The notes under the pieces are model-generated. The model had not been told where the DNA came from and did no database searches. It was given only the letters and a program-made list of their open reading frames with translations. Below, piece by piece: positions 1,594 through 38,700 of a stretch of DNA of 64,000 bases. The position numbers and the translations under genes were made by a program. The first letter of the stretch is position 1. The number at the start of each line of letters is the position of its first letter. Origin of the DNA: Vicinamibacterales bacterium (GTDB lineage: Bacteria; Acidobacteriota; Vicinamibacteria; Vicinamibacterales; UBA8438); NCBI GenBank assembly GCA_965207595.1, contig CBDBMW010000012.1, positions 1,039,466 through 1,103,465 of the forward strand, in the 5' to 3' direction.

Positions 1594-1766
1594 CGCGGGT
1601 CTCTCCCTCGAGTTCTGTTTCGTCACGGCCGGCACGATGCCCGGCCCGCGCGACTGCGCGTGATCGTACACCGCGGCCCGCCGGAGTGAACCCCGTTCCT
1701 CGGAACCTCGAACGGCCGGCTCCCGTCATCACGCTCGACATCGCAGTCCGGGAGGGCAGCCCCATC

Positions 1767-7967: not shown

Positions 7968-8212
7968 GACCGCTCCTTGTCACCTCCGAACGCCCGGAGG
8001 ATGTCGTCCGGAAGCGGCTCGAAGAAACTGTCCGGCACTCTCATTCCACGGTCGATGCCCACCGGCCGCTCCTGCAGCGGCTGCCGCGGCAGGGCGCGTA
8101 TCTCGGCAACCGGGACGTTGCGGCGGCAGAGCACGACGGTCTCACCCCGTTCGACGCTCTCCAGGTACCTCGAGAGGTGAGCTTTCGCCTCGGCAATGTT
8201 GACCTTGAGCAT
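7964..8212 (-). CDS. Phd/YefM-family antitoxin
   Basis: MLKVNIAEAKAHLSRYLESVERGETVVLCRRNVPVAEI; 4-bp overlap with the toxin. Confidence 0.92.
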   Translation of the reverse strand: MLKVNIAEAKAHLSRYLESVERGETVVLCRRNVPVAEIRALPRQPLQERPVGIDRGMRVPDSFFEPLPDDILRAFGGDKERS

Positions 8213-18934: not shown

Positions 18935-18985
18935 CCTATTGACATCCGATAGGTGTGGGCCCTAGACTTATGGAAATTCGATAGG
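18935..18985 (+). promoter_or_regulatory. padR promoter with two 19-bp operator palindromes
   Basis: CCTATTG-ACATC-CGATAGG (18935) contains TTGACA; CTTATGG-AAATT-CGATAGG (18967); TAGACT 18 bp after the -35; first site identical at 35919. Confidence 0.75.
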
Positions 18986-19004
18986 TCGTTCCAGGAGCCC
19001 AGCC

Positions 19005-19340
19005 ATGTCCCGCACCGACCTCATGCGCGGCACGCTCGATCTGCTTATCCTGCGCGCGCTCATCACGGGCCCCAATCACGGCCTCGGCATCGCGCGCCGG
19101 GTCGAGCAGATGACGCAGGGGGCGTTCCGCGTCAACCCCGGCTCCCTGTTCCCCGCGCTGCACCGGCTCGACCAGAAGGGCTGGCTGACCGCGACGTGGG
19201 GCCGTTCCGAGACCAATCGGAAGGCGAAGTTCTACGAGCTGACCGCCGCCGGGCGCCGGCAGGCCGTGGCGGAAGTCCGCAACTGGAGGCGAGTCTCGCT
19301 CGCCATCGAGCTGGCGCTCCGCGACGTAGAGGAAGCGTGA
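19005..19340 (+). CDS. PadR-family regulator, Acidobacterial type
   Basis: DLMRGTLDLLILRAL, HGLGIARRVEQ, GSLFPALHRL, RKAKFYELT; coupled to the ADOP gene. Confidence 0.93.
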   Translation: MSRTDLMRGTLDLLILRALITGPNHGLGIARRVEQMTQGAFRVNPGSLFPALHRLDQKGWLTATWGRSETNRKAKFYELTAAGRRQAVAEVRNWRRVSLAIELALRDVEEA

Positions 19341-22057
19341 TGTCCGGCCCCGCGGATCGGCCTGGCGCGGGAGGCGTCGCAAGTCGGCTGCGGAACTTCG
19401 CGGTTCGCCTGGTGAATCTCTTCCGCCGGGAACATCTCGAACGGGAGCTCGATGCGGAGCTGGAGGCCTACCTGGCGCTGGACGTCGAGGAGCGCGTGCG
19501 CCGGGGCATGGCTCCGCGAGAAGCGCGCCGCACCGCGCTCGTGCGCCTGGGGGGCATGGAGATGGTGAAGGAGTTGTGTCGCGACGTGCATCGGGTTCGC
19601 GCCGCCGACCTCGGACGCGACGTGCGGGACGGCGTCCGATCGCTCGCCCGGCGTCCGGCGTTCACCGCGGTCGCGTTGCTCTCGCTCGCGATCGGCATCG
19701 GAGCCAACACCGCCATCTTCAGCCTGGTCAACGCCGTCATCCTCCGCGACACGCCGGTCGAGCGGCCGGAGGAGGTCGTCAACGTCTATCTCCACCAGGC
19801 GTCGTTCGCCCACGGTCCGCTCTCCTATCCCAGCTTCGAGGACGTCCGCGATGGCACCTCGGACGTGTTCAGCCACGTCGCGGCCGCGCAGCTCGTCCCG
19901 GCGCAACTCGACCGCGCGGGCGGGGGCGTGGAGATGGTCCTCGCCGAGGCCGTCACCGGCGACTACCTCCCCATGCTGGGGGTCGAAGCCGCGCTCGGGC
20001 GCACCCTGCTGCCGAGCGACGACGTCTCTCCCGGCGGCCATCCGGTGGCGATGCTGGACTACCAGTACTGGCAGAGCGCCTTCGGCGGCGACCCGGACGC
20101 CGTGGGCAGCGAGATGCGCATCGCCGGCCGGGCGTACACGGTGGTCGGCGTGGGGCCGCCCGACTTCGCGGGCACGATGCGCGGCCTCGCACCGGCGTTC
20201 TATGCGCCGTCCGTGATGGCGGAGGAGCTTCTCGGCGCCCGCCTGTTCGACGCGAGGGGCGGCCAGGTGCTGTTCGTCAAGGCGCGGCTGCGGCCGGGGG
20301 CAACGCTGCCGCAGGCCGAGGCCGCCGTCGGGGCGGTGGCCGCACAGCTCACCCGGGACCGCATCGAGCACTGGGACCCGGCCGGGCAGTTCGTGGTCCT
20401 GCCGCTCACCGACGTGCTGCTCTTCCCGCCGATCGACATCTTCATCCGGCCCGCGGCGGGACTGCTGATGGCGGTCGTGGCGCTGGTCCTGCTGCTGGCG
20501 TGCACCAACCTCGCCAGCTTCCTGCTGGCGCGGGCGCTCGACCGGCGCAAGGAGGTCGCGGTGCGTCTGGCGCTCGGCGCGTCGCGCGGATCCCTGGTGC
20601 GGCGGCTGCTGACCGAGACCACGCTGCTGAGCCTGCTGGCCGGGGCCGCGGGCACGGGGCTCGCGGTCTGGCTGCTCCACCTGCTGGCCACGGCCGACCT
20701 CCCGCTGCCGATCCCCGTCGCGCTCGATCTCCGTCTCGACCGGAACGTCCTCGCGTTCACGCTCGGCGTCTCGGTCGTGGCCGGAACCCTGCTGGGCCTG
20801 GTGCCGGCGCTGCAGAGCACCCGGCCGGACGTCTCCGGCGCCCTCCGGAGCGAGAGCTCGGGCGGGGGGCAGCCCGGCCAGCTCCGGTGGCGCAACGTAC
20901 TGGTCGTCGCACAGCTCACGATCTCGCTCGTGCTGCTCGTCGGGGCCGGCCTCTTCCTGCGCAGCTTCCAGCAGGTGCAGTCGGTCGACCCCGGCTTCGG
21001 ACGCGAGCCGAGCGCCATCCTCACCTTCCTGACGCCGGCCACCCGGTTCACGCCCGACGAGGCGCGCGTCTACACGCGGCGCCTGCTCGACCGCTTCCGC
21101 GAGCTGCCGGGCGTCGACGCGGTCGGCGCCATCAGCCGCCTCCACCTGGACCCGCTCACCCAGAGCACGAGCGACTTCAACGTCGCCGCCGTCGAACCGC
21201 CGACCGATCACGGCGCCTTCCACGCGGACCAGGCCCAGGTGGACCTCGGGTTCTTCGAGGCGGCCGGCATCGAGATCGTCCGCGGCCGCAGCTTCAGCGA
21301 CGCCGACCGGGCGGACACGCAACCCGTGGCGATCATCAGCGAAGCCATGGCCGGGCGCTTCTGGGAGGACGGCGACGCCGTCGGCCGGCTGGTGCGGCCG
21401 CGCGGCGACGAGAGATCCCCCTGGCTGGTCGTCGGCGTCGCCAGCGACGCCAAGGTGCGGACGCTCGGCGAGGCGCCGCGCAACATGATCTACCTCCCCT
21501 ACTCGCAGCGGCTCACGCGGTCGCTGACGGTCGTGGCCCGGACGTCGATGGACCCCCAGCAGACAGCGCTCGCGCTCCTGACGGCCGGGCGCGAGGTCGA
21601 CCCCGACCTGTGGGTCCTCGCGTCGAAGACGATGGACCGCCACCTCGCGGTGATGCGCTTGCCGCAACAGCTCTCCGCGTTCGTCCTGTCCGCCTTCGGG
21701 GTGCTGGCGCTCACGCTCGCTGCGGTCGGCCTCTACGGCGTGGTCAGCTACGCCGTCTCCCAGCGCACGCGCGAGGTCGGCATTCGCATGGCGCTCGGCG
21801 CCGACGGAGCGCGCGTCGTGCGGATGCTCGTCGCGGGCGGCCTCAGGCTGGTGGTCATCGGCGGCGCGCTCGGGCTGGCCCTCGCCGTCGTTGCCGCGCG
21901 CCTCCTGGGCGGGCTGCTGTTCGAGGTCGATACGCTCGACCCGCTGACGTTCGTCGGCGTGCCGCTGGTCCTCGCCGCCGCGGCCTTCGTCGCGGCCTGG
22001 CTGCCGGCCCGCCGCGCCAGCCGGGTCCATCCGGTCACCGCGCTCCGGACCGACTGA
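19340..22057 (+). CDS. ADOP-family duplicated ABC permease with N-terminal prefix domain
   Basis: LERELDAELEAYL...RRGMAPREARRTAL prefix followed by ADOP motifs; TGATG coupling to padR. Confidence 0.93.
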   Translation: MSGPADRPGAGGVASRLRNFAVRLVNLFRREHLERELDAELEAYLALDVEERVRRGMAPREARRTALVRLGGMEMVKELCRDVHRVRAADLGRDVRDGVRSLARRPAFTAVALLSLAIGIGANTAIFSLVNAVILRDTPVERPEEVVNVYLHQASFAHGPLSYPSFEDVRDGTSDVFSHVAAAQLVPAQLDRAGGGVEMVLAEAVTGDYLPMLGVEAALGRTLLPSDDVSPGGHPVAMLDYQYWQSAFGGDPDAVGSEMRIAGRAYTVVGVGPPDFAGTMRGLAPAFYAPSVMAEELLGARLFDARGGQVLFVKARLRPGATLPQAEAAVGAVAAQLTRDRIEHWDPAGQFVVLPLTDVLLFPPIDIFIRPAAGLLMAVVALVLLLACTNLASFLLARALDRRKEVAVRLALGASRGSLVRRLLTETTLLSLLAGAAGTGLAVWLLHLLATADLPLPIPVALDLRLDRNVLAFTLGVSVVAGTLLGLVPALQSTRPDVSGALRSESSGGGQPGQLRWRNVLVVAQLTISLVLLVGAGLFLRSFQQVQSVDPGFGREPSAILTFLTPATRFTPDEARVYTRRLLDRFRELPGVDAVGAISRLHLDPLTQSTSDFNVAAVEPPTDHGAFHADQAQVDLGFFEAAGIEIVRGRSFSDADRADTQPVAIISEAMAGRFWEDGDAVGRLVRPRGDERSPWLVVGVASDAKVRTLGEAPRNMIYLPYSQRLTRSLTVVARTSMDPQQTALALLTAGREVDPDLWVLASKTMDRHLAVMRLPQQLSAFVLSAFGVLALTLAAVGLYGVVSYAVSQRTREVGIRMALGADGARVVRMLVAGGLRLVVIGGALGLALAVVAARLLGGLLFEVDTLDPLTFVGVPLVLAAAAFVAAWLPARRASRVHPVTALRTD

Positions 22058-27450: not shown

Positions 27451-27708
27451 ATGGTGCGTACCCAGATACAGGTAACCGAAGCTCAGCACCGGCGGTTGAC
27501 ACGCTACGCGGCGCGTTTGGGCATCTCGCTGGCGGAAGCGGTGCGGCGCTGTGTCGACGCGCAGCTCGATCAGGACGACACGCATCCGTCGCGCCAGGAG
27601 CGGCTTCGCGCCGCGCTTGCCGTCTGCGGAAAATACCGCGACTCGAGTGGCGAGACCCGCGTGGCTCGGGAGCACGATCGGCACTTGGACGCGGCGTACG
27701 GCACATGA
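27451..27708 (+). CDS. RHH/CopG-type antitoxin
   Basis: MVRTQIQVTEAQHRRLTRYAARLGISLAEAVRRCVD; imperfect palindrome GATGTTA-N6-TTACATC at 27431-27450. Confidence 0.88.
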   Translation: MVRTQIQVTEAQHRRLTRYAARLGISLAEAVRRCVDAQLDQDDTHPSRQERLRAALAVCGKYRDSSGETRVAREHDRHLDAAYGT

Positions 27709-28115
27709 GCGTCTTCGCTGACACGTCCGGCCTGTATGCCCTGCTCGTTGGCTCCGAAGATGGCCATGCCGGCGTGGTGCGCGCGTTCCGGGCCGTTGTT
27801 TCGCAACAGCGTCCGCTCCGGACGACGTCGTATGTCGTGGTCGAGACGGTCGCTCTGCTGCAGCACCGCGTTGGACTGGAAGCGGTGCGCGACTTCGACG
27901 ACCATGTGTACCCGTTGCTGTCCGTGGAGTGGGTGTCCGACGAGTTGCACCGCCGCGGCATGCGATGCCTGTCGCGGGCGAACCGCCGCCGCCTGAGTCT
28001 CGTCGACTGTGTGAGCCTGGAGTTCATGCGCCAGCACGCGATAGAGGACGTGCTGGGACTGGACCGGCACTTCGAGGAAGCCGGCTTCACACTGCTCCCT
28101 GCGGCGGCCGACTAA
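27705..28115 (+). CDS. vapC: PIN-domain VapC toxin
   Basis: VFADTSGLYALL, TTSYVVVETVALL, LSLVDCVSLEFM, LDRHFEEAGF. Confidence 0.92.
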   Translation: MSVFADTSGLYALLVGSEDGHAGVVRAFRAVVSQQRPLRTTSYVVVETVALLQHRVGLEAVRDFDDHVYPLLSVEWVSDELHRRGMRCLSRANRRRLSLVDCVSLEFMRQHAIEDVLGLDRHFEEAGFTLLPAAAD

Positions 28116-28278: not shown

Positions 28279-31005
28279 CTACTCCCGGCGGAGCGCCGCC
28301 ATCGGGTCGATGCGGGATGCCCGCCGCGCCGGGACGAATCCGGCGGCCAGCGCGACGGCGGCCAGGGTCAGCACGGAGACGGCGACGGGCGCGGGCGTCA
28401 GCCCCTCGATCTCGTAGAGGAGCGACCGGGCCAGACGGCCGACGCCGAACGCGGCCGCGAGCCCGACCGCGCCCGCGACGAGCGTCAGTCGGGCGACGTG
28501 GCCCAGCACCATCGCCCGAACGCGCGTCGCACCCGCGCCGAGCGCCATCCGAAGGCCGATCTCGCGCGTGCGCTGGGCCACCGTGTAGGCCAGCACCCCG
28601 TAGAGGCCCACCGCCGCCAGGAGGGTGGCCAGCCCGGCGAAGGCAGCCGACAGCAGCGTGATCACGCGATCCTCGAACGCGGCCTCCTCCACCAGCCGGG
28701 GGAGGGTCATCAGTTGGGTGACGGGCAGGTTGGGATCGAGTGCGGCCACCAGCGGGCGGACCGTGCGGAGCGCAGCCTCCGGGGGCACGGTGCTCCGCGC
28801 ATAGAACGCGAGCGAGCCGACCGTCTCGGCCTGCCGGTACGGCACGTAGAGGAGCGGCGGGGCCGGGGTCTTGACGCTGTTGTAGCGCGTGTCCGCGACG
28901 AGGCCGACGATCTCGGTGTCGAGCTCGACGTCGAGGCCGCCGCGGCCCAGGCGCCGGCCCACGGCGCCGCGGCCCAGGGCGAACTTGCGCGCGAACGCCT
29001 CGTTGACGACCGCCACCGGGGGCGCCCCCCGCACGTCCGCCTCCGTGAACGTGCGGCCCGCGAGCAACGGGATCCCGAGCGTCCGGAAGTAGTCCGTGCC
29101 CACCTGGTTGAACCGCGTTTCGCGATCCGCATCGGGCGGCGCCTCGAAGCCCTCCACCCGCACGTCGATGGCCCAACTGTCTCCGACGAACACCGGGATC
29201 GAGGCCGCTGTGGCCCCCGTCACGCCGGGTTGCGCGGCCAGCTCCCCTTCGAGGCGCTCGAAGAAGGCGCGCGCCTGCTCGTCCCCATAGCCGTTCAGGC
29301 CGGGCCACAGGCGGAACGTCACGACGTCGTGCGTCCGGATCCCGAGGTCCGCGCCGCTGACGTTGCGCAGGCTCTGGACGAAGAGCCCGGTCACCACCAG
29401 CAGCATCGCCGCCAGCGCGAACTGCGCCATGACCAGCCCGCTCCGGAAGCCGGCCGCCGAACGGGCGCCGTCCGGCTGGCCGGCGTCGTGCTTGAGGGCG
29501 GTGACCAGCGCCCCCCGCGTTCCGTGGAAGGCCGGGAAGATCCCGAAGAGCAGGCCGGTCGCGAGCGCGACCGCCGCGGTGAACGGAAGCGCGTAGGGGT
29601 CCAGCGTCAACTGCAGGACCTCCGCCACCCGGGGCGGCAGCAGCGCGGCGATGAAGCGCAGCGTCCACGGCGCCGCGAGCAGCCCGGCCACGCCGCCGAG
29701 CGTGGCCAGGAGGCACGACTCGGTCAGCAGTTGCGTCACGAGCTGCCGCCGCGTCGCGCCGAGCGAGAGCCGCACCGCCATCTCGGAGGCGCGAGCGGCC
29801 GAGCGCGCCAGCAGCAGGTTGGCGATGTTCGCGCACGCGATGAGCAGGACCACGCCCGTGATGCCGAGTAGGAGCAGCAGCGGTACGGCAAAAGCCTCGT
29901 GCGCGCCGCTCTGACCTCGCCATCCGTCCACGATGGGCAACGGCTTGGCGAGGAACCGCGCCCGCATCTCCTCGCTCATGTCCGCCTGGAGCGGCGCCTC
30001 CACGTCGGTCAGGATGCTCCGGTAGAGGGGCGCCATCGCGGCGCGGGCCTGTTCGACGGCGACGTCCGGCTTCAGGCGGGCGAACAGGTAGAGCCAGTAG
30101 TTCCGGCGGTCCTCGAAGCGGCCCTCGCCGAAGCCGCCGCCCAGCCTCACGTGCATCGTGAGCGGCACGAACACCATCGACGGCATGTTGAACGCCGTCC
30201 CGCGGAAACCGGCCGGGGCCACCCCGACGATGGTCAGCGGCTCCCCGTTGACAAGCAACACGTCGCCGACCACGTCGCCCGCCCCGCCCAGTTGGGTCTG
30301 CCAGAAGGCGTGGCTCAGCACGGCGACGGGATGCCCGCCGATCGGCTCGTCGACTTCCGGGCCGAACAGGCTTCCGAGCGCCGGCACGAGGCCCAGCGCC
30401 GGAAAGTACGAGCCGGAGACCTGCATGCCCTGGACGATGTCGATGGTGCGCCCCTCGTGGGCGACGCTCGCGCCGAAGCCGCGGTGCGCCACGAGGTCCG
30501 TGAACACGGTCTGCTCCCGCTGCAGGTCGCGGAACATCGGGTAGCTGAACACCTCGTCGCAGCCGCCCTGGCCCGTGCAACTGTCCGAGCCCGGCTTCGG
30601 CCCGGGGGCCTCCAGATTCACGAGGCGCTCGGGCTCGACGACCGGCAGCGGGCGCAGCAGGAACTGGCTGTAGAGCGAGAAGATCGCGGCGTTCGACCCG
30701 ATGCCGAGGGCCAGCGACACGACCGCCACGCCGGTGACCACCGGGGTCTTGACGAGCATGCGCAGCGCCAGTCGGACGTTGGTCATCGCCTGCTCCAGTT
30801 CCTCGATGGGCCGCAGGTTGCGCTCGCGCCGGCAGGCGTCCTTCGCGCCCTCGACGCTGCCGAACTGCACCCGGGCCCGCCGCAGCGCTTCCGGCCGGGG
30901 CACCCCGGAGCGGATCAGGTCGTCGGTGTAGGCATCGAGGTGAAACCGCATCTCCTTGTCGAGATCGTCCTCGAGGCCCTCCCGGCGGCGTGTCCACCAG
31001 CTCAT
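28279..31005 (-). CDS. ADOP-family duplicated ABC permease with prefix domain (divergent clade)
   Basis: EDDLDKEMRFHL, SLALGIGSNAAIFS, LLIACANIANLLLAR, QRTREIGLRMALGA, PARRASRIDP. Confidence 0.93.
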   Translation of the reverse strand: MSWWTRRREGLEDDLDKEMRFHLDAYTDDLIRSGVPRPEALRRARVQFGSVEGAKDACRRERNLRPIEELEQAMTNVRLALRMLVKTPVVTGVAVVSLALGIGSNAAIFSLYSQFLLRPLPVVEPERLVNLEAPGPKPGSDSCTGQGGCDEVFSYPMFRDLQREQTVFTDLVAHRGFGASVAHEGRTIDIVQGMQVSGSYFPALGLVPALGSLFGPEVDEPIGGHPVAVLSHAFWQTQLGGAGDVVGDVLLVNGEPLTIVGVAPAGFRGTAFNMPSMVFVPLTMHVRLGGGFGEGRFEDRRNYWLYLFARLKPDVAVEQARAAMAPLYRSILTDVEAPLQADMSEEMRARFLAKPLPIVDGWRGQSGAHEAFAVPLLLLLGITGVVLLIACANIANLLLARSAARASEMAVRLSLGATRRQLVTQLLTESCLLATLGGVAGLLAAPWTLRFIAALLPPRVAEVLQLTLDPYALPFTAAVALATGLLFGIFPAFHGTRGALVTALKHDAGQPDGARSAAGFRSGLVMAQFALAAMLLVVTGLFVQSLRNVSGADLGIRTHDVVTFRLWPGLNGYGDEQARAFFERLEGELAAQPGVTGATAASIPVFVGDSWAIDVRVEGFEAPPDADRETRFNQVGTDYFRTLGIPLLAGRTFTEADVRGAPPVAVVNEAFARKFALGRGAVGRRLGRGGLDVELDTEIVGLVADTRYNSVKTPAPPLLYVPYRQAETVGSLAFYARSTVPPEAALRTVRPLVAALDPNLPVTQLMTLPRLVEEAAFEDRVITLLSAAFAGLATLLAAVGLYGVLAYTVAQRTREIGLRMALGAGATRVRAMVLGHVARLTLVAGAVGLAAAFGVGRLARSLLYEIEGLTPAPVAVSVLTLAAVALAAGFVPARRASRIDPMAALRRE

Positions 31006-31349
31006 CCGGCGTCTCCGCCCGCGGTCCGGAGAATCAGCCCCACCGCCTCCGCGAGCCGGGTCCAGCTCTCGACCTGCTCCTGCAGTTGCGCCCGCCCCCT
31101 GAGGGTCAGGCGGTAGAACTTCGCTTCCCGTCCCGTGTCGGACGGACGCCACTCCGCGGCGAGGAGCCTGCGCTTCTCCAGGCGGTGGAGGGCGGGATAG
31201 AGCGAGCCCTGCGGCGCCTGGAGCACGTCGCCGGATATCTGCCGGATCCGCTGCGCGATGCCGTAGCCGTGGATGGGACCGGCGGCGGCCACCCGCAGCA
31301 CGAGCAGATCCAGGGTCCCCTGCGGCAGTTCGATCCGGGGTGCGGTCAT
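31002..31349 (-). CDS. PadR-family regulator, Acidobacterial type
   Basis: ELPQGTLDLLVL, HGYGIAQRIRQIS, QGSLYPALHRLE, REAKFYRLT. Confidence 0.93.
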   Translation of the reverse strand: MTAPRIELPQGTLDLLVLRVAAAGPIHGYGIAQRIRQISGDVLQAPQGSLYPALHRLEKRRLLAAEWRPSDTGREAKFYRLTLRGRAQLQEQVESWTRLAEAVGLILRTAGGDAG

Positions 31350-31402: not shown

Positions 31403-31656
31403 CAACCGCCCCTTCGCCGTCTCGCAGCACCAAGGTATCGCTCGACCGGCACGAGCGGAAGCCCGGTACGCCCAGGTACCCTGAACGTCTCCAGCGCCGT
31501 CGCGGTACAGGACGCGCATGAGTCACCCCTCGAGGGCCCTCGAGAAGGGTCAACCAGGACCGGAAGGCGTCGCCGATGACCTACCTGGTCGGGGCAGGCA
31601 GTTTCGTCGGTATCCCAGGCTGGGGTTCTGGACGCCTGCGCTGTCTCGATCTCAGC

Positions 31657-32064
31657 CTACGGGGTGTATTGCACGTCCCAGATTCGAAGCAGGTTGCGGC
31701 ATCCGTCGTCGAAACTACGGGTGAAATCGATCATCTGCAACTGAGCCAGGGTCCAGGACAACGGGTCGTAGTCACAGGCTCGATGCATCAGCGGCGCGAT
31801 GCGCCCCTCGAACCGGTCCTGCCGAAGGGCGTACATGAGCTCTCTCTTCACCCACATGGAAGCCACAGAGTCCGGGGAGAGAACGACGATGAACCAATCG
31901 CAGCGCTGGAGCGCTTTGCCGATCTCGTCGTGCCACTGCTGGGCGCCCTGGATGTCGGTGTCGCTGTACCAGACTGGAATCTGATGGCGGCGCAGAACGC
32001 CGACCAGCCGCTCGGCGAACTCCTGATCTACATGCGAATGCGAGACGAAAACCTCGGTCGGCAC
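31657..32064 (-). CDS. Stand-alone TIR-domain protein (TIR_2-like) B
   Basis: EVFVSHSHVD, GKALQRCDWFIVVLSPDSVASMWVKRELMYAL (catalytic Glu position present), IDF; GTG start. Confidence 0.88.
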   Translation of the reverse strand: MPTEVFVSHSHVDQEFAERLVGVLRRHQIPVWYSDTDIQGAQQWHDEIGKALQRCDWFIVVLSPDSVASMWVKRELMYALRQDRFEGRIAPLMHRACDYDPLSWTLAQLQMIDFTRSFDDGCRNLLRIWDVQYTP

Positions 32065-32086
32065 TTGGGCTCGCCGCCTACGGGGC

Positions 32087-32497
32087 TCAGGCTTGGCCGA
32101 GGAGCGCCGCGGCGATGGGCTTGACCTCGGGATCGGCGCTCTCCGGGTCCGGCAGATCCACCCAGTGCAGCTTTCGGACGATCCAGGGAATCTCCCCCTT
32201 CGGAAGCTGCTCCCGACCACCGACTGCGACGGGAATCAGTCGGTTTCTGTAGCTCTTCGAACCCAGCGCGTACATCATCTCGGCCTTGACGTGCGGCGAG
32301 CTGATCGAGTTGGGCGTCAAGAGCACGACCATGGCGTCGGACTCTTCGAGCGCGCGGCCCACCTGGGCCGGCCAGTTGTCGCCGAGGAAGAGGTGGACTT
32401 CCGGATCCCACACCTGCAGCCCGGCCTTCCGGAGCGCCCTGGACACCCGGGCGGCCAGCGGCGAGTCCGAATGGGAGTGGCTGACGAAGACCTGCAT
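32087..32497 (-). CDS. Stand-alone TIR-domain protein (TIR_2-like) A
   Basis: MQVFVSHSHSD, ALEESDAMVVLLTPNSISSPHVKAEMMYAL, LIPV, WVDL; GAGGG RBS. Confidence 0.88.
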   Translation of the reverse strand: MQVFVSHSHSDSPLAARVSRALRKAGLQVWDPEVHLFLGDNWPAQVGRALEESDAMVVLLTPNSISSPHVKAEMMYALGSKSYRNRLIPVAVGGREQLPKGEIPWIVRKLHWVDLPDPESADPEVKPIAAALLGQA

Positions 32498-32605
32498 CGG
32501 AAGCAACCCTCAACGTACTCGACGCCGCTGCGGGCGTCAACGCGCCGGGACCCGGCCTCGACTTGAACAGGCCGCCGGGTCGCGCGGCGCTCGGGCCGCC
32601 GGCAC

Positions 32606-35293
32606 TCAGTCGTCCCGGAGCGCCACCATGGGACTGACCCGGCTGGCGCGCCGGGCCGGCAGCCAGGCGGCCAGGAGCGCCGCGGCGCCGAGGACCAGCG
32701 GCACGCCGGCGAACGTCAGCGGGTCGAGCGCGTCGACCTCGAACAGCAGCCCGCCCAGCAGGCGGGTCGCCACGACGGCGAGCGCCAGCCCCAGCGCGCC
32801 GCCGAGGACCACCAGCTTGAGGCCGCCCGCGACGAGCAGCCGCACGACGCGGGGGCCGTCGGCGCCGAGCGCCTTCCGGATGCCGATCTCGCGCGTCCGC
32901 CGGGCGACGCCGTAGCTGACCACCCCGTAGAGACCGACCGCGGCGAGCGCCAGGGCCAGCACCCCGAACGCCGACAGGACAAAGGCGGTCAGCCGCTGGG
33001 GCAGCCGCATCAGGGCCAGGTGGCGGTCCATCGTCTTCGTCTCGAGGACCCGCAGGTCGGGATCCAGCTCACGACCGGCGGCCAGCAGGGCGAGTGCCGT
33101 CCGCTCCGGGTCGACGGACGTCCTCGCCACGACCGTCAGCGCCGGCGTGAACCGCTGCGAGTACGGGAGATAGACCAGATTGCGCGGAGGCTCGCCGAGC
33201 GTCCTCACGTTCGCGTCGCTCGCCACGCCGACGACGAGCCAGGGGGCATTGTCGCCGGGCCGCCGGACGAGCCGCCCGACCGCGTCGCCGTCCGTCCAGA
33301 AACGCCGGGCCATCGCTTCGCTGACGATGACCACGGGCTGGGCGTCCGGCCGATCGGCGTCGAGGAAGTTGCGCCCGCGGACGATCTCGATGCCTGCCGC
33401 CTCGAAGAACCCCGGCTCGACCTCGACCCGGTCCGCGATGAAGGCACCGTGGTCCGTCGGCGGCTCGAAGCCGTCGACGTTGAAGTCGCTCGAACGCTGG
33501 CTGAGCGGGTTCAGGTGCAGGTTGCTGATGGCGCCCACCGCCTCCACGCCGGGGAGCGCGCGGAAGCGATCCAGGAGGCGCCGCGTGTACACACGCGCCT
33601 CGTCGGGCGTGAACCGGGTCGCAGGCGCCATGAACGTCAGCAGGGCGGCCGGCTCACGGCCGAAGCCCGGGTCGACCGCCTGCGCCTGCTGAAAGCTGCG
33701 GAGGAACAGGCCGGCGCCGACGAGCAGCACCAGCGAGATCGCGAGTTGCGCGACGACCAGCGCGTTGCGCCAGCGGAGCTGTCCGGGTTGGCCGCCCCCG
33801 GCGCTCTCGCCTCGGAGGGCGCCGGCCACGTCCGGCCGCGTGCTCCCGAGCGCCGGCACCATACCGAGCAGGGCGCCGGCCACGACGGAGACGCCGAGCG
33901 TGAACCCGAGGACGTTGCCGTCGGGACGGAGATCCAGCGTGACCGGCGCCGGCAGCGGGAGATCCGCGGTCACCAGCAGGTCGAGCAGCCAGACCGCCAG
34001 CCCGACGCCGGCGCCGCCGGCCAGCAGGCCGAGCAGCGTCGTCTCGGTCAGGAGGCGCCGCACGAGCGAACCGCGCGACGCGCCCAGCGCCAGGCGCACC
34101 GCAACCTCCTTGCGCCGGTCGAGGGCGCGCGCGAGCAGGAAGCTGGCGAGGTTGGTGCACGCCAGCAACAGCACGAGCCCGACGACCACCATCAACAGCC
34201 ACGCCGCCCCCCGGATGTAGCCGTCCAGCGGCGGGAAGAGCAGTACGTCGGTGAGCGGGAGGAGCGCGTACTCCCCGGCCGGATCCCAGTTCGGAATGCG
34301 GTCCCGGGTGAGCTGCGCGGCCACCGCCCCGACGGCGGTCTCGGCACGGGACAGGGTGACGCCCGGCCGGAGACGCGCCTTGACGAAGAGCGAGCTCTGG
34401 CCGCGATGGTCGAACACCGGGACTCCGTTCAGCTCCTCGGCCATCATGTACGGGACGTAGAACGTCGGCACAAGGCCGCGGAGCGTGCCCGCGAAGTCGG
34501 GCGGTCCCACCCCGATCACCGTGTACGCGCGGCCGCCGACGCGCATCTCGCGTCCCACGACTCCCGGGTCGCCGGCGAACGCGCTCTGCCAGTAGCGATA
34601 GTCGAGCATCACGACCGGGTGCCCGCCGCGCGAGACGTCGTCGCTCGGCAGCAGGGTGCGTCCGACCGCCGCCTCGATCCCCAGCATCGGGAAGTAGCTG
34701 CCGGTGACCGCCTCCGCCGGCGCCAGGCCGACGCCACCCTCCCCCCGGTCGATCGTCAATGGCAAGAAATGGGAGGCCGCGATGTCGCTGAACACCTCGG
34801 CGGTGCCGTCGCGGACATCCTCGAAATCGGGGTACGACAACGAGCCGAACTCGAACGCTGCCCGGTGCAGGTAGACGTTGACCACCTCTTCCGGCCGCTC
34901 GATCGGCGAATCGCGAAGGATCACGGCGTTGACGAGGCTGAAGATGGCGGTGTTGGCCCCGATGCCGAGCGCGAGCGAGAGGATGGCGACCGCCGTGAAG
35001 GCCGGACGCCTGGCGAGGGAACGCATGCCGTCGCGGACGTCGCGACCGACTCCGAGCTGGAGCCAGACCCAGCCGCCGCGGATGTCGCGCACCGCGTCCT
35101 TCTGTGCTTCGACGCCGCCGAAGACGGCGCGCGCCCGTCGCCGCGCTTCCCGCGGATGGACTCCTGCCTCGCGCACCAGGCGCTCTACTTCCATGTCGAG
35201 ATGGAAGCGGAACTCCTCGTCCATCCGCTGCTCGACCTCGCCACCGAACAGCAGACGGCGGAGACGGGCGCGGGCGGCATCTACCCACCGCAT
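32606..35293 (-). CDS. ADOP-family duplicated ABC permease with prefix domain
   Basis: EQRMDEEFRFHL prefix; body closely related to the permeases at 1767, 14649 and 19340. Confidence 0.93.
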   Translation of the reverse strand: MRWVDAARARLRRLLFGGEVEQRMDEEFRFHLDMEVERLVREAGVHPREARRRARAVFGGVEAQKDAVRDIRGGWVWLQLGVGRDVRDGMRSLARRPAFTAVAILSLALGIGANTAIFSLVNAVILRDSPIERPEEVVNVYLHRAAFEFGSLSYPDFEDVRDGTAEVFSDIAASHFLPLTIDRGEGGVGLAPAEAVTGSYFPMLGIEAAVGRTLLPSDDVSRGGHPVVMLDYRYWQSAFAGDPGVVGREMRVGGRAYTVIGVGPPDFAGTLRGLVPTFYVPYMMAEELNGVPVFDHRGQSSLFVKARLRPGVTLSRAETAVGAVAAQLTRDRIPNWDPAGEYALLPLTDVLLFPPLDGYIRGAAWLLMVVVGLVLLLACTNLASFLLARALDRRKEVAVRLALGASRGSLVRRLLTETTLLGLLAGGAGVGLAVWLLDLLVTADLPLPAPVTLDLRPDGNVLGFTLGVSVVAGALLGMVPALGSTRPDVAGALRGESAGGGQPGQLRWRNALVVAQLAISLVLLVGAGLFLRSFQQAQAVDPGFGREPAALLTFMAPATRFTPDEARVYTRRLLDRFRALPGVEAVGAISNLHLNPLSQRSSDFNVDGFEPPTDHGAFIADRVEVEPGFFEAAGIEIVRGRNFLDADRPDAQPVVIVSEAMARRFWTDGDAVGRLVRRPGDNAPWLVVGVASDANVRTLGEPPRNLVYLPYSQRFTPALTVVARTSVDPERTALALLAAGRELDPDLRVLETKTMDRHLALMRLPQRLTAFVLSAFGVLALALAAVGLYGVVSYGVARRTREIGIRKALGADGPRVVRLLVAGGLKLVVLGGALGLALAVVATRLLGGLLFEVDALDPLTFAGVPLVLGAAALLAAWLPARRASRVSPMVALRDD

Positions 35294-35634
35294 CACGTGC
35301 TCCGCAGCACCGCGCCGAGGCCTTCGGCGAAGCGCTGCCAGCTATCGATCTCGTCGCCGAGCGCTCGCCGACCCGACGGCGTCAGCCGGTAGTAGCGCGC
35401 CCGCCGGTTGTTGTCGGTCGTGCCCCAGTCGCTCCGAATCAACCTCTGCTTCTCGAGGCGCTGGAGGGCCGGGTACAGCGAGCCCTGGTTGATGTCCAGC
35501 ACCCCCGAGGACATCTGCCGGATCCGCTGGCCAATGCCCCAGCCGTGCATCGGCGCAAGGGAGAGCGTCTTCAGGATCACCAGGTCGAGCGAGCCTCGAA
35601 GGTCGTCTGGTCCTCTAGCCATCGAGAGGAGCAT
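35293..35634 (-). CDS. PadR-family regulator, Acidobacterial type
   Basis: DLRGSLDLVILKTL, HGWGIGQRIRQMS, QGSLYPALQRLE, RRARYYRLT. Confidence 0.93.
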   Translation of the reverse strand: MLLSMARGPDDLRGSLDLVILKTLSLAPMHGWGIGQRIRQMSSGVLDINQGSLYPALQRLEKQRLIRSDWGTTDNNRRARYYRLTPSGRRALGDEIDSWQRFAEGLGAVLRST

Positions 35635-35770: not shown

Positions 35771-35896
35771 GACCCGGCCGTCTTCGCCGGCGCCGCCCTC
35801 ACGATCACGGTCGTCGGCCTGCTGGCGGGGTGGGTCCCGGCGTACCGTGCAGCACGGCTCCACCCGGCGCGCACGTTGACGGAGACCCGGTCGTAG
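35771..35896 (+). pseudogene. C-terminal remnant of a seventh ADOP permease
   Basis: DPAVFAGAALTITVVGLLAGWVPAYRAARLHPARTL-stop with no upstream body. Confidence 0.7.
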
Positions 35897-35918
35897 GGGG
35901 TGTGCCCCGCGGGCACCT

Positions 35919-35967
35919 CCTATTGACATCCGATAGGAACCGTCCTATCCTATCGAAACTCAATAGG
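35919..35967 (+). promoter_or_regulatory. Orphaned padR-type promoter/operator pair
   Basis: CCTATTGACATCCGATAGG identical to 18935-18953; second site CCTATCG-AAACT-CAATAGG at 35949; TTGACA-18 bp-TATCCT. Confidence 0.78.
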
Positions 35968-35969
35968 AG

Positions 35970-36045
35970 TAGCCGGTCTCGCACGCCGGGTGGAGCGCGC
36001 CTCGGTCGCCATCGAGCTGGCGCTGCGCGACGCAGGAGAAGCGTG
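35970..36045 (+). pseudogene. padR remnant (internal deletion)
   Basis: TCGCCATCGAGCTGGCGCTGCGCGACGCAGGAGAAGCGTGA matches the 3' end of padR 19005-19340. Confidence 0.8.
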
Positions 36046-38700
36046 ATGACGAACCCCTTGCGGGCCTTCGCCGTTCGACTGCTGAATCTGTTCCGCCGCC
36101 TTCCGCTCGAACGCGAGCTGGACGCGGAGCTTCAGGCGTACCTGGAGATGGAAGTCGACGAGAACGTCCGGCGCGGCATGGCTCCCCGGGAAGCGCGGCG
36201 CGCGGCGCTGGCCCGCCTGGGAGGCCTGGAGACGGTCAAGGAACAGTGCCGCGACGTGCACCGTTTCCGTGCCGTCGACGACTTGTGGCGGGACTTCCAG
36301 TTCGGGTTGCGCCGGTTGCGCGCGCGACCGATGCTTGCCGCGGTGGCGACCGCGGTCCTGGCCATCGGAATCGGTGCGAACGCCGTCATCTTCGCGCTGG
36401 TCGACGCCCTGCTGCTGCGGCCCCTGCCCGGCCCCGACCCCCATCGGCTGGTCGTGGTGTCCACGAGCGACTTCTCGAGCGGGCGGCCGGGCGCGAACTC
36501 CTGGCCGGACTTCCTCGACATTCGCGAGTCCACGCGCGACGTGTTCGAGCAGCTCACCGCCTCGTCGCTCGTTCCGGTGGGCGCACCCATCGGCGGAGAG
36601 ACCCGGGTCCTGTCCGCCGGGATGGTGGAGCCGAACTACTTCGCCACGATGGGATTGCGGCCGGTCCTCGGGCGCGGGTTCGTGGCGACCGAGACGCGCC
36701 CCGTTGCCGTCCTCGGCAACGCAGCGTGGCGGTCCGAGTTCGGCGGCGATCCGTCGGTGCTGGGCCGCGCGATTGTCCTCAACGGCGTGCCGTTCACGAT
36801 CGTGGGGGTGGCGCCCGTCGAGCTGGCTGCCCTGCAGAACCTCTTCCGCGTCGACCTCTGGCTGCCCGCGGCCTTCGAGCCGTCGGTACGGCTCGGCGAT
36901 GCCAGACAGGAGCAGCGCGGCGTCCGCGGGTACTCCATAGTCGGTCGACTGCAACAAGGCGTCAGTACCGACGAGGCAGGCGCCCGGCTGGCGGTAATCG
37001 GCCGGCGACTCCATCAGGCATACCCCGAGGAATGGACGAGCCTCGCCGGACAGCCACGATCCCTGACGGTCAGAGAAGCGCACGACGCGCGCCTGCCGTT
37101 CTCGGCGTTCGGTCCCCTGGCCGTGCTGACCGGACTGGTCGGCACGCTCCTGCTCATCGTCTGCGCCAACATCTCGGGCCTCCTGCTCGCCGACGCGTCG
37201 GTCCGCCGCCGCGAGATGTCGATCCGGCAGGCCCTGGGAGCGAGCCGCCCGAGACTGATCCGGCAGGTGGCCGTCGAGAGCCTCGGCCTCGGCCTGGTCG
37301 CGGGGGGCCTGGGCGTTGCCGCGGCATCGGTCGCCGTCCGGTACGTGACGCTGCTGGTACCGGACCTGCCGTTGCCCCTCCCCCTGCACCTGGACCTCGA
37401 GCCCGGCTGGCGCCTGCTCGTGGCGTCGCTGGCCGTGTCGTCGGGCGTGGGGCTCCTGGTGGGGTTCCTGCCCGCCCTGTACGCAACGCACGCCCGACCC
37501 GGCCACGGCAGCTTCTCGCAGACGAGGTTCCGCAACGCCCTGACCGCGATGCAGGCGACCGCCGCGGTCTTTCTCCTGATCGTCGCGGGTGCGTTCGCGC
37601 GCAGCATCGTGACCGCGTACGCCGTACCGCTCGGCTACGACACCGACGACCTGGCGCTCGTCACGGTCGATCTGGAGGCAGCCGGGTACTCCGAGGAGCG
37701 CGGTCGCGCGTACCTCCGACGGGTGTTCGAGGAGGTGCCGGCGGCCGAGGCCTCCGCGGCGCCGTTCCTGTCGCTCCAGGCGCGGTCCCGCATCGGCCTG
37801 GAAGTCGACGGGTACCGCTACCGGCCCGGAGAGGACCGGGAGGTGTACGCGAACCGCGTCAGTCCGGGTTTCGTTCGCCTGCTGGGCGTGCCTCTCGTTC
37901 GCGGCCGGGACCTCGAACCCGGAGAGCGGAACGCGGTGCTCGTCAACCGGGCGTTCGCGGAGCGGTTCTGGCCGGGGCGGAATGCGGTCGGCGGCCGACT
38001 CCGCCGACTGAGCCTGGATGCGCTTCTTGGTCGCGGGCCGAGCGACCCCGCGCGTCCGGCCGCCTTCCCGTGGTCCACCGTGGTCGGCGTGGTCGAGGAC
38101 GGCCAGTTCGTGTCGTTTCGAGAGGAAGGCGTGCCCGTCGTGTTCGCGTCCCTGGAGGACGTCTACTCCCCGCAGGTCACGTTCCACATCCGCGGCGTAT
38201 CGGCCGAAGCGGCACGAGAGGGCATCGGCCGGATCGATCCCGGCGTGCCCGTGGTGAACGTGGGGATGATGGTCGAGATGGTCGACGCGGCTCTGCTGCC
38301 GGCGTGGGCCGCGACGGTCGTGAGCGGCTTCGTCGGGGTCGGCGGCCTGCTTCTCGCCTGCATCGGGCTCTTCGGCACGCTGAGCTACGTCGTCGCGCAG
38401 CGCGCCCCGGAGATCGGCCTCCGCGTCGCGCTCGGGGCACGGCCGCTGCAGATCGTCCGGCTCGTCGCGGGAGGCGCCGGCGTGAAGCTGGTGACGGTCG
38501 GCGTCATCGCCGGAGCCGCCCTGGGCAGCGGAGTCTCGCCGCTGCTGCAGGCACAGTTCTCTCGCGCCGCAGGCCTGGATCCCCTCGCGTTCGTGGCGGT
38601 GGGGCTATGCCTCGCGCTGGTGGCCGCGGTTGCCGTGGGGTTGCCGGCCGCGCGCGCGCTCGGGATCGACCCCGCGGAGGTGCTGCGCGCCGAGGAGTAG
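36046..38700 (+). CDS. ADOP-family duplicated ABC permease: prefix like that of the 19340 gene, divergent body
   Basis: LERELDAELQAYL prefix; AIGIGANAVIFALV, LLIVCANISGLLLA, QRAPEIGLRVALGA. Confidence 0.9.
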   Translation: MTNPLRAFAVRLLNLFRRLPLERELDAELQAYLEMEVDENVRRGMAPREARRAALARLGGLETVKEQCRDVHRFRAVDDLWRDFQFGLRRLRARPMLAAVATAVLAIGIGANAVIFALVDALLLRPLPGPDPHRLVVVSTSDFSSGRPGANSWPDFLDIRESTRDVFEQLTASSLVPVGAPIGGETRVLSAGMVEPNYFATMGLRPVLGRGFVATETRPVAVLGNAAWRSEFGGDPSVLGRAIVLNGVPFTIVGVAPVELAALQNLFRVDLWLPAAFEPSVRLGDARQEQRGVRGYSIVGRLQQGVSTDEAGARLAVIGRRLHQAYPEEWTSLAGQPRSLTVREAHDARLPFSAFGPLAVLTGLVGTLLLIVCANISGLLLADASVRRREMSIRQALGASRPRLIRQVAVESLGLGLVAGGLGVAAASVAVRYVTLLVPDLPLPLPLHLDLEPGWRLLVASLAVSSGVGLLVGFLPALYATHARPGHGSFSQTRFRNALTAMQATAAVFLLIVAGAFARSIVTAYAVPLGYDTDDLALVTVDLEAAGYSEERGRAYLRRVFEEVPAAEASAAPFLSLQARSRIGLEVDGYRYRPGEDREVYANRVSPGFVRLLGVPLVRGRDLEPGERNAVLVNRAFAERFWPGRNAVGGRLRRLSLDALLGRGPSDPARPAAFPWSTVVGVVEDGQFVSFREEGVPVVFASLEDVYSPQVTFHIRGVSAEAAREGIGRIDPGVPVVNVGMMVEMVDAALLPAWAATVVSGFVGVGGLLLACIGLFGTLSYVVAQRAPEIGLRVALGARPLQIVRLVAGGAGVKLVTVGVIAGAALGSGVSPLLQAQFSRAAGLDPLAFVAVGLCLALVAAVAVGLPAARALGIDPAEVLRAEE

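What the first reader, a model, noticed from the sequence alone, without database searches (positions are those of the whole stretch)
31657..32497. Two tandem stand-alone TIR proteins with no effector gene
Seen: a two-gene unit of 136-aa and 135-aa TIR-only proteins 22 bp apart. They are clearly divergent from each other, both keep the FxSHS box and the catalytic-position Glu (VKAEM, VKREL), have lower GC than the flanks, and lie between two PadR-ADOP cassettes. No SIR2, Macro, nucleotide-sensor or STAND gene is adjacent. Established: Thoeris uses several ThsB TIRs to make signals for ThsA, and bacterial TIRs can deplete NAD+ on oligomerising. Inference: a minimal TIR-TIR defence module (sensor plus NADase, or a heteromeric filament), or signal generators for a distant effector.
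Basis: partly seen in the sequence, partly recalled or inferred. Interest (0 to 1): 0.7.

Follow-up and report, generated by a model that had tools for sequence, protein, structure and literature searches.

The report
Mobile effector-less two-TIR gene cassette
Two small adjacent genes for TIR (NAD-cleaving immune-type) proteins form a self-contained 0.9-kb cassette found in over a dozen bacterial phyla; the second gene looks like a dangerous NAD-destroying enzyme that is never kept without the first, so the pair probably works like a toxin with its keeper, an arrangement I found described in no searched paper.

Summary
Window 32087-32497(-) encodes TIR-A (136 aa) and 31657-32064(-) encodes TIR-B (135 aa, GTG start). 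Both are TIR_2-only proteins, 32% identical, 22 bp apart, lower in GC than the flanks, and set between PadR/FtsX-permease (ADOP) units.

- **Conserved unit.** In genomes of other genera, DNA homology ends at a ~920-bp cassette (31651-32572) while the flanks are unrelated. Cassette dS to those genera is 2-6 times lower than rpoB dS, which indicates horizontal transfer.
- **Distribution.** In the best 80 of 387 B-family loci across more than 12 phyla, every testable locus (79/79) has A directly upstream. No third gene recurs.
- **No Thoeris effector.** The host genome, a sponge-associated Vicinamibacterales, has no ThsA-type SLOG or Macro effector. Its only SIR2 gene is a split DSR2.
- **B looks catalytic, A does not.** B keeps an invariant W-x-x-x-E site and folds most like SPARTA, PdTIR and AbTir NADase TIRs. 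A's equivalent Glu is replaced by N, D or H in 25% of orthologues, and A evolves faster.
- **Asymmetric decay.** In 104 family genomes, at least 9 independent lesions destroyed B and left A intact. The converse was never seen.

Best reading (about 0.5): B is an NADase toxin/effector and A is its non-catalytic TIR-fold keeper or sensor, in a TA-like abortive-infection or addiction module. This is a new variant of known TIR defence logic, and none of it has been tested experimentally.

The parts
31651..32572 (-). Whole conserved cassette: about 75 bp upstream region, TIR-A, spacer and TIR-B. It ends about 6-10 bp after the TIR-B stop.
   Evidence: blastn and MAFFT against copies in other genera. 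Homology of 84-89% nt is confined to these coordinates and the flanks are unrelated.
32512..32540 (-). Conserved promoter-like element TTGACG-N17-TACGTT, 14 nt upstream of the TIR-A ATG. GAGGG lies at 32507-32511.
   Evidence: Read from the sequence and conserved in all copies. It falls below the threshold of the consensus scan, so it is an inference. Metatranscriptome contigs of relatives begin just inside TIR-A, with no coverage upstream.
32087..32497 (-). TIR-A, 136 aa. TIR_2-only protein and proposed non-catalytic partner (keeper or sensor). E73 sits in HVKAEM. Family-invariant motifs are PGDNW, ALEES.AMVVLLTP, YALG, NRLIPV and PW.
32065..32086 (-). 22-bp A-B spacer. Its CCCCGTAGGC motif recurs at the TIR-B stop (31650-31664 / 32071-32085, spacing 421 nt). 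This is probably a trace of the ancient tandem duplication.
   Evidence: family D7.
31657..32064 (-). TIR-B, 135 aa, GTG start. TIR_2-only protein and proposed NADase effector/toxin. F6, S8, H9, W44-HDEIG and W71-V-K-R-E75-L are invariant in the family.
32606..35296 (-). Context only, not part of the unit: upstream ADOP-type permease (MacB_PCD + FtsX). Its PadR gene lies at 35293-35634.
   Evidence: An orthologue is present in G004 without the TIR pair.
31002..31349 (-). Context only: downstream PadR regulator of the next PadR-ADOP unit (28279-31152).

Best explanation
The pair is a self-contained, horizontally mobile two-gene module.

- **TIR-B** is the catalytic component. It is a TIR NADase whose unrestrained activity is harmful to the cell, so it acts as an effector or toxin.
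- **TIR-A** is an ancient paralogue made from the upstream gene of the same transcript. It does not need catalysis. I infer that it binds B and blocks the B-B head-to-tail assembly that forms TIR active sites.
- **Trigger (inferred).** A trigger such as phage infection, or loss of the cassette, removes or re-arranges A. B then depletes NAD+ and causes abortive infection or post-segregational killing.

**Shown:**
- the domain identities;
- obligate A-to-B linkage in all testable loci;
- conservation of B's catalytic motif and relaxation of A's;
- mobility of the cassette;
- absence of ThsA-type effectors in the genome and of any recurrent neighbouring gene;
- one-sided decay.

**Inferred:**
- NADase activity of B;
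- a physical A-B complex;
- inhibition by A;
- the trigger.
For: 1. Both genes are TIR_2 only.
2. B's W71/E75 are invariant in 47 homologues found without motif bias. B's AF2 model (pLDDT 89) is closest to the NAD-depleting TIR of SPARTA (TM 0.76-0.81) and to PdTIR, BtpA, BtTir and AbTir. By sequence it is closest to PdTIR 3h16 (4.5e-8) and AbTir.
3. At A's catalytic position, 79 orthologues paired with B show E 59, N 10, D 8, H 2. The Trp position shows Y, W, H, D, N and others. A's invariant residues lie elsewhere.
4. Linkage: 79/79 testable B loci in more than 12 phyla have A directly upstream on the same strand, mostly 20-60 bp away. All 75 testable loci with an intact B have an intact A.
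5. Census of 104 family genomes, about 30 loci:
   - both genes intact: 10;
   - A intact with B broken or deleted: 11, of which at least 9 have different junctions and so are independent events;
   - A broken with B intact: 0;
   - both broken: 8.
   An even-odds binomial on 9-11 first hits against 0 gives p of about 0.002-0.0005.
6. Orphan A genes still show dN/dS of 0.05-0.3.
7. The architecture is TA-like: keeper gene first, B second with a weak GTG start in the Vicinamibacterales copies and most of the proteobacterial ones, and a shared conserved upstream region.
8. A and B co-diverge (r = 0.77, Mantel 0/999) and A evolves faster than B in 96% of comparisons.
9. The module is self-sufficient:
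   - the cassette alone is shared between genera;
   - cassette dS is 0.27 against rpoB dS of 1.70 (G028) and 1.03 (G006);
   - no neighbour family recurs in more than 10 of 80 loci;
   - the genome has no ThsA SLOG or Macro effector.
10. Precedents:
   - single short TIR proteins are complete anti-phage systems in E. coli (PMC11350192);
   - Sau-Thoeris pairs a ThsB1 whose putative catalytic residues are dispensable for immunity with a catalytic ThsB2 (PMC12578639).
11. Sponge metatranscriptome contigs of ~94%-identical relatives cover both genes, and one contig spans the junction.
Against: - No biochemical or genetic data exist for this family. NADase activity, toxicity and A-B binding are all inferred.
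- The one-sided decay could arise because B is simply costly and its loss is favoured, without A being an inhibitor.
- A has no DNA-binding domain, unlike classical type II antitoxins.
- In many lineages A keeps a canonical W...E motif and may be catalytic.
- The 80-locus set was retrieved through B's conserved motifs. It therefore over-represents intact B, and B's invariance within that set is partly by construction.
- The promoter match is weak.
- Metatranscriptomes may contain DNA, and the contigs come from relatives, not from this strain.
- I could not co-fold A and B.
- The mechanism that moves the cassette is unknown. I found no recombinase, no flanking inverted repeats and no attC-like ends.
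Confidence: 0.5

Rival explanations
1. Sensor-activator pair, as in staphylococcal ThsB1/ThsB2. A senses a phage protein and recruits or activates B. B is inert on its own. Once activated, B depletes NAD+ directly, so no ThsA is needed.
For: - In Sau-Thoeris, mutating ThsB1's putative catalytic residues did not disrupt immunity, and ThsB1 binds the capsid protein and activates the catalytic ThsB2 (PMC12578639).
- A evolves faster than B, as sensors do.
- A's catalytic residue is dispensable.
- Short stand-alone TIRs can be complete defence systems (PMC11350192).
Against: If B were harmless without A, first inactivating hits should fall on A and B about equally. Observed: at least 9-11 hits on B and 0 on A. 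No locus with an intact B lacks an intact A. This model can be combined with the best explanation, with A both restraining B and sensing.
Confidence: 0.22
2. Orphan ThsB-type signal generators. One or both TIRs make a cADPR-type messenger for an effector encoded elsewhere in the genome.
For: - Weak matches to ThsB models: PF08937 gives 23 bits for B against a cut-off of 21.2. Matches to PADLOC ThsB models range from 1e-6 to 1e-9.
- Thoeris operons can carry several ThsB genes.
Against: - There is no SLOG-containing ThsA and no Macro-domain protein anywhere in a 98.7%-complete genome. The only SIR2_2 gene is a split DSR2.
- The cassette transfers alone between genomes with unrelated flanks.
- No recurrent neighbour occurs in 80 loci.
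- The one-sided loss of B is not expected for a harmless cyclase.
- Caspase-type (type IV Thoeris) or other effectors were not searched for.
Confidence: 0.1
3. Host-interaction or housekeeping role. The TIR proteins of a sponge symbiont mimic or interfere with animal TIR signalling, as BtpA/TcpB do, or they tune NAD metabolism, rather than serving in defence or addiction.
For: - The genome and its closest cassette holders come from sponge or marine metagenomes.
- Fold matches include BtpA/TcpB and animal adaptor TIRs.
Against: - The same pair occurs in bacteria not labelled as sponge-derived: other Vicinamibacterales MAGs, Nostoc, Chloroflexota, Planctomycetota and others.
- No signal or secretion feature was noticed, though this was not tested.
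- Patchy distribution, multiple copies per genome, frequent decay, and neighbours from TA, defence or mobile elements are typical of conflict systems.
Confidence: 0.05

Closest known systems
Staphylococcal type I Thoeris ThsA-ThsB1-ThsB2 (PMC12578639)
   Same: Two different TIR proteins encoded side by side. The putative catalytic residues of one (ThsB1) are dispensable for immunity, and it partners the catalytic one (ThsB2, Glu opposite a Phe). B likewise has an invariant F6 and E75.
   Different: There is no ThsA effector next to the pair or, for types I and II, anywhere in the genome. Both proteins are minimal ~135-aa TIR-only proteins, whereas ThsB1's putative catalytic residues lie at positions 242 and 318, so it is much longer. 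The decay pattern implies that the catalytic TIR is itself the harmful effector.
Single-protein short TIR anti-phage systems of E. coli (TIR-V, TIR-VI, TIR-IX; PMC11350192)
   Same: Short TIR-only proteins that act without a separate effector and cause cell death or growth arrest when a phage protein appears.
   Different: Those are single genes. Here two diverged TIR genes are obligately linked (79/79), and the second is never found without the first.
Bacterial TIR NADases PdTIR (3H16), BtTir (7UXR), AbTir (7UWG/7UXU/8G83), BtpA/TcpB, and the TIR of SPARTA TIR-APAZ
   Same: These are the best sequence and fold matches of TIR-B. The W-x-x-x-E catalytic motif is shared. SPARTA's TIR is a direct NAD-depleting effector activated by oligomerisation.
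   Different: Those TIRs carry extra regulatory domains (coiled coil, APAZ/Ago). Here the candidate regulator is a separate TIR-fold protein.
Type II toxin-antitoxin modules, including NAD-depleting toxins such as the RES-domain NatT/NatR pair
   Same: - A two-gene bicistronic unit with the protective gene first.
- Patchy, multi-copy and mobile distribution.
- The toxin is never found alone, while orphan upstream genes are common.
- The unit sits among VapBC-type TA genes.
   Different: The putative antitoxin is a paralogue of the toxin, with the same TIR fold and no recognisable DNA-binding domain. Toxicity and neutralisation are untested.

Membership tests
Pfam TIR_2 (PF13676) | Whole-protein score above the gathering threshold (28 bits) | tested here: met
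   A scores 88.2 bits and B 102.8 bits. The match covers essentially the whole protein in both.
Catalytic TIR NADase | Conserved catalytic Glu in the alpha-C W-x-x-x-E motif, opposite the beta-A Phe | tested here: met
   TIR-B: F6, W71 and E75 are invariant in 47 homologues. Its fold is closest to NADase TIRs. Enzyme activity itself cannot be tested here.
Catalytic TIR NADase | The same motif in TIR-A | tested here: inconclusive
   E73 is present in this copy, but Trp is replaced by His. Across 79 orthologues the Glu position is E 59, N 10, D 8, H 2, and the Trp position is highly variable.
Thoeris (types I and II) | ThsA effector (SIR2-SLOG or Macro-TM) encoded with the TIR gene or genes | tested here: not met
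   - No such gene is adjacent.
- In the genome, the PADLOC ThsA1 model hits only the SIR2 part of a DSR2 gene on another contig.
- There is no Macro domain in the genome.
- There is no recurrent neighbour in 80 loci.
Thoeris ThsB (PF08937 ThsB_TIR) | Score above the gathering threshold (21.2 bits) | tested here: inconclusive
   B scores 23.0 bits, marginally above the threshold. A scores 18.5 bits, below it. Both match TIR_2 far better.
Thoeris type IV (TIR + caspase-like protease) | Caspase-like effector encoded with the TIR gene | not tested
   None is adjacent in the window or in the related loci examined. The genome was not searched for one.
Type II toxin-antitoxin module | Two small co-oriented genes, with the toxin never lacking its antitoxin and orphan antitoxins tolerated | tested here: met
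   79/79 linkage. All 75 testable intact-B loci have an intact A. Counts are 11 (A only) against 0 (B only) in 104 genomes.
Type II toxin-antitoxin module | Toxin toxicity neutralised by direct binding of the antitoxin | not testable with these tools
   This needs expression and pull-down assays.
Type II toxin-antitoxin module | Antitoxin with a DNA-binding, autoregulatory domain | tested here: not met
   A is a TIR domain from end to end, with no other Pfam, NCBIfam or PADLOC domain.
Integron gene cassette or other IR-bounded mobile element | Terminal attC-like or inverted repeats, or a linked recombinase | tested here: not met
   No flanking inverted or direct repeats lie at the cassette ends. 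No conserved recombinase neighbour was found. No dedicated attC model was run.

The most novel reading that the evidence does not exclude
TIR-A/TIR-B would be the first toxin-keeper or defence pair in which both partners are TIR domains. A catalytically dispensable TIR paralogue would act as the dedicated inhibitor, and possibly the infection sensor, of a minimal TIR NADase by poisoning its self-assembly. The whole system would fit in a 0.9-kb promoter-plus-two-gene cassette that spreads horizontally through more than 12 bacterial phyla by an unknown mechanism. This would be a bacterial parallel to the auto-inhibition of SARM1 and to paired plant TIR immune receptors.
Probability: 0.4. Interest if true: 0.75.

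Novelty: new variant of a known kind. Interest (0 to 1): 0.6.

Why it matters
TIR NADases are central to immunity in bacteria, plants and animals. How their lethal activity is held in check is a live question, for example SARM1 auto-inhibition, the AbTir coiled coil and Thoeris sensing.

A minimal system in which one TIR domain controls another would give a very small, tractable model for TIR-TIR regulation. It would also add an effector-less two-TIR class to the defence and TA catalogues. The pair occurs in 387 loci among about 185,000 species genomes, mostly of uncultured phyla but also in cultured Nostoc strains.

The one-sided decay gives a directly testable prediction: B alone is toxic, and A rescues.

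Tried and rejected
- **Empty-site comparison.** G004, a same-genus genome without the pair, keeps the ADOP-2/PadR-2 orthologue (90% nt) but has no synteny on either side. No clean insertion site could be defined.
- **Promoter scan.** The conserved TTGACG-N17-TACGTT falls below the tool's threshold.
- **Terminal repeats or attC-like ends.** None were found. The hairpin at 32541-32589 straddles the left boundary and is specific to this locus.
- **ThsA search.** The only SIR2_2 hit is a DSR2 split into two ORFs. The ThsA1 model hits only its SIR2 part. There is no Macro domain.
- **Phage and plasmid collections.** There was no phage match. Plasmids carry only distant TIRs (45% identity or less), and the best one is a 267-aa single TIR protein, not the pair.
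- **Third-gene search.** Clustering the ORFs around 80 loci gave only lineage-specific blocks. Examples are a Nostoc block and an HTH-A-B-HNH block in Gemmatimonadota and Latescibacterota.
- **Literature.** Five searches found no description of an effector-less two-TIR pair.
- **Co-folding A with B.** The structure tool takes single chains only.
- **Gene caller.** My simple GC3-based caller missed TIR-B and PadR-1, so I did not use it for conclusions.

Full report
**Observation.** On the minus strand, 32087-32497 encodes a 136-aa protein (TIR-A, ATG start) and 31657-32064 encodes a 135-aa protein (TIR-B, GTG start). They are 22 bp apart. Each is a TIR_2 (PF13676) domain from end to end, at 88 and 103 bits against a cut-off of 28. 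They are 32% identical to each other. Both begin FVSHSH. A has HVKAEM and B has WVKREL at the catalytic helix. GC is 0.61-0.65 against 0.70-0.77 in the flanks. The neighbours are a PadR gene (31002-31349) and a MacB_PCD+FtsX 'ADOP' permease (32606-35296). These belong to an array of at least six such permease units in the window.

**A discrete, mobile cassette.** I compared the region with copies in related genomes. DNA homology of 84-89% is confined to 31651-32572 in genomes of other genera (G028, G006, G022) and in a same-genus genome where the copy sits in a different context (G002). It starts about 75 bp upstream of the A start codon and ends a few bases after the B stop codon. The flanks are unrelated.

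- The conserved upstream stretch holds TTGACG-N17-TACGTT, 14 nt before the ATG. This is only a weak sigma-70 match, so calling it a promoter is an inference from its conservation.
- Synonymous divergence of the cassette between this genome and G028, G006, G116 and G101 is 0.27, 0.27, 0.20 and 0.32. For an rpoB fragment of the same genomes it is 1.70, 1.03, 0.53 and 0.72. For three other genomes the two values agree. The cassette has therefore moved horizontally among genera of this family.
- I found no terminal repeats, attC-like ends or linked recombinase. The mechanism of movement is unknown.
- In genus g6 the upstream permease flank is also conserved. There the unit sits at the same locus as in this window.

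**Distribution and linkage.** The host is a sponge-associated Vicinamibacterales (Acidobacteriota).

- Protein searches found 756 B-type and 309 A-type clusters. Nearly all of the listed hits (the best 120 of each) are 128-160 aa TIR-only proteins, apart from a few truncated or extended ones.
- A scan of one genome per species found 387 B-family loci. The best 80 span Acidobacteriota, Gamma-, Alpha- and Deltaproteobacteria, Cyanobacteria (including cultured Nostoc), Chloroflexota, Gemmatimonadota, Planctomycetota, Latescibacterota, Armatimonadota, Binatia, Spirochaetia and Firmicutes.
- In 79 of 79 testable loci an A-family gene lies directly upstream on the same strand, usually 20-60 bp away. 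All 75 testable loci with an intact B have an intact A.
- Clustering all flanking ORFs found no family present in more than 10 of the 80 loci. The recurrent ones are lineage-specific synteny blocks (examples).
- A and B distances are correlated (r = 0.77, Mantel 0/999). B is the more conserved partner in 96% of comparisons.
- Both genes are under purifying selection, with median dN/dS of 0.31 for A and 0.26 for B.

**No distant Thoeris effector.** The genome is 98.7% complete. It contains one SIR2_2 gene on another contig, and PADLOC identifies it as DSR2 (2e-251) split into two ORFs. The ThsA1 model matches only its SIR2 part, so no SLOG domain is present. There is no Macro domain. Together with the solitary mobility of the cassette, this argues against 'orphan ThsB' signal makers. 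Caspase-type effectors were not searched for.

**Which partner is the enzyme.**

- In 47 B homologues retrieved without motif bias, F6, S8, H9, W44-HDEIG and W71-V-x-R-E75-L are invariant.
- B's AF2 model (pLDDT 89) matches the NAD-depleting TIR of SPARTA best (TM 0.76-0.81). PdTIR, BtpA, BtTir and AbTir follow (sequence matches).
- In A, the residue equivalent to the catalytic Glu is E in 59, N in 10, D in 8 and H in 2 of 79 orthologues that sit next to an intact or near-intact B. The Trp position is Y, W, H, D, N and others.
- A's invariant residues (PGDNW, ALEES.AMVVLLTP, YALG, NRLIPV, PW) lie elsewhere.
- A's model (pLDDT 86) is a generic TIR fold. It matches scaffold TIRs as well as it matches enzymes.
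- I conclude that B is the catalytic subunit and that A's role does not require catalysis.

**One-sided decay.** I searched all 104 genomes of the family with both proteins and inspected the loci. Among about 30 loci the counts are:

| State | Loci |
|---|---|
| Both genes intact | 10 |
| A intact, B broken or deleted | 11 |
| A broken, B intact | 0 |
| Both decayed | 8 |
| Cut by a contig end | 1 |

- The lesions in B differ from one another:
  - a 77-bp deletion (G001);
  - a stop codon (G002, where A's ATG is also changed to ACG);
  - truncation after codon 60 (G022);
  - two different near-precise excisions of the B ORF (G123, G125a);
  - deletions of the N-terminal part (G121, G125b);
  - loss after about codon 14 (G104);
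  - complete loss (G091);
  - internal remnants only (G077).
- At least nine are therefore independent events.
- Outside this family, four of the 80 loci again have a broken B beside an intact A; two of these four are G001 and G002 again, and the other two are a Bryobacterales and a Paracoccaceae genome.
- A sponge metatranscriptome contig carries a 229-bp deletion inside B.
- Orphan A genes still look constrained against their nearest paired relatives (dN/dS 0.05-0.3).
- If A and B were simply two co-required parts, first hits should fall on either gene equally. Counts of 9-11 against 0 give p of about 0.002-0.0005.
- So either an intact B without A is counter-selected because it is toxic, or loss of B is itself favoured because B is costly. 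Either way B is the harmful component and A is not.

**Mechanism proposed.** B is a minimal TIR NADase effector. A is an old paralogue of B; a shared CCCCGTAGGC motif after each gene may be a remnant of the duplication.

- A is translated first from the same transcript. In the Vicinamibacterales copies and most of the proteobacterial ones B has a weak GTG start.
- I infer that A binds B and prevents the head-to-tail B-B assembly that builds TIR active sites.
- A trigger such as a phage protein, degradation of A, or loss of the cassette would free B, which then depletes NAD+.
- This is toxin-antitoxin or abortive-infection logic. It fits the neighbourhoods, which hold VapBC-type pairs here (27451-28115) and TA, HTH, HNH, helicase and ATPase genes in other phyla.
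- Related cassettes appear in sponge metatranscriptomes, with one contig spanning the A/B junction. This is only suggestive, because such libraries can contain DNA and the contigs are about 94% identical relatives.

**Rival readings.**

1. A sensor-activator pair like staphylococcal ThsB1/ThsB2 (PMC12578639). This explains A's dispensable catalysis and its faster evolution, but not the one-sided decay. It can be merged with the main model if A both restrains and senses.
2. Signal makers for an unlinked effector. The evidence above disfavours this.
3. A host-interaction role in the sponge. This is disfavoured by the wide distribution of the pair in bacteria not labelled as sponge-derived.

**Comparison with known systems.** The closest are the following:

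- Thoeris operons with two ThsB genes. The paired-TIR logic is the same, but ThsA is absent here.
[quoted passage not shown] These are also effector-less, but they are single genes.
- Stand-alone or fused bacterial TIR NADases (PdTIR, AbTir, SPARTA).
- Type II TA modules. The genetics are the same, but the putative antitoxin here is a TIR paralogue without a DNA-binding domain.

Five literature searches found no description of an effector-less two-TIR pair. Earlier AI notes of this scan had spotted the same pair in other genomes and likewise called it undescribed. I used them as leads only. Linkage, order and the enzyme/look-alike split were re-tested here.

**Verdict.** This is a real feature and a new variant of a known kind (TIR NADase conflict systems). 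My confidence in the toxin-plus-keeper mechanism is about 0.5, and everything beyond sequence inference remains untested.

Noticed in passing
G000 contig C9:354024-357765 (locus L113 6024-9765): The only SIR2_2 gene of the genome is a DSR2 (PADLOC Dsr2, 2e-251). It is split into two overlapping ORFs of 697 and 615 aa that cover model positions 4-594 and 626-1220. This is either a frameshifted pseudogene or an assembly error.
   Followed up: partly
window 1686-4235, 14646-17120, 18953-22057, 28279-31152, 32606-35296, 35830-38700: An array of at least six large FtsX/MacB-type 'ADOP' permease paralogues, several with a PadR gene. The three at 1686-4235, 14646-17120 and 18953-22057 match the G004 orthologue of ADOP-2 at 83-85% nt. 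The units themselves appear to be rearranged between genomes of the same genus.
   Followed up: partly
window 27451-28115 and 7581-8212: Two small TA-like pairs. One is RHH (CopG) + PIN at 27451-27708 / 27705-28115. The other is a second small two-gene pair at 7581-8212, not domain-scanned, so its PIN + antitoxin identity is a guess. The region is therefore rich in addiction or defence modules.
   Followed up: partly
loci L052/L169, L182, L184, L201, L211, L213, L215: In Gemmatimonadota, Latescibacterota and one Heliobacteriaceae MAG, a small HNH endonuclease gene follows the pair immediately, and in the Gemmatimonadota/Latescibacterota loci an Xre-type HTH gene (plus PcfJ in the two annotated Gemmatimonadota loci) precedes it. 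This could be a lineage-specific mobility or regulatory add-on.
   Followed up: no
window 31691-31921 (run X28, contig record 19): A sponge metatranscriptome contig of a ~94%-identical relative carries a 229-bp internal deletion of TIR-B. This is another natural B-inactivated variant.
   Followed up: no
window 31650-31664 and 32071-32085: The motif CCCCGTAGGC recurs just after TIR-A and at the stop of TIR-B, 421 nt apart. It is probably a relic of the tandem duplication that created the pair, or a shared 3' element.
   Followed up: no
G000 C13:753342-753683, C12:1303090-1303392, C13:1655491-1655793: Three further TIR_2 domains in the genome lie inside much larger open frames (1426, 450 and 402 aa). 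These are other TIR-fusion proteins that I did not characterise.
   Followed up: no
G006 C1:1707306-1708060, G121 C2:5411860-5412525, G100 C1:384900-385109, G125 C2 (two sites): Several relatives carry two copies of the cassette at different sites, and one of the two is usually decayed. This is consistent with repeated acquisition.
   Followed up: partly
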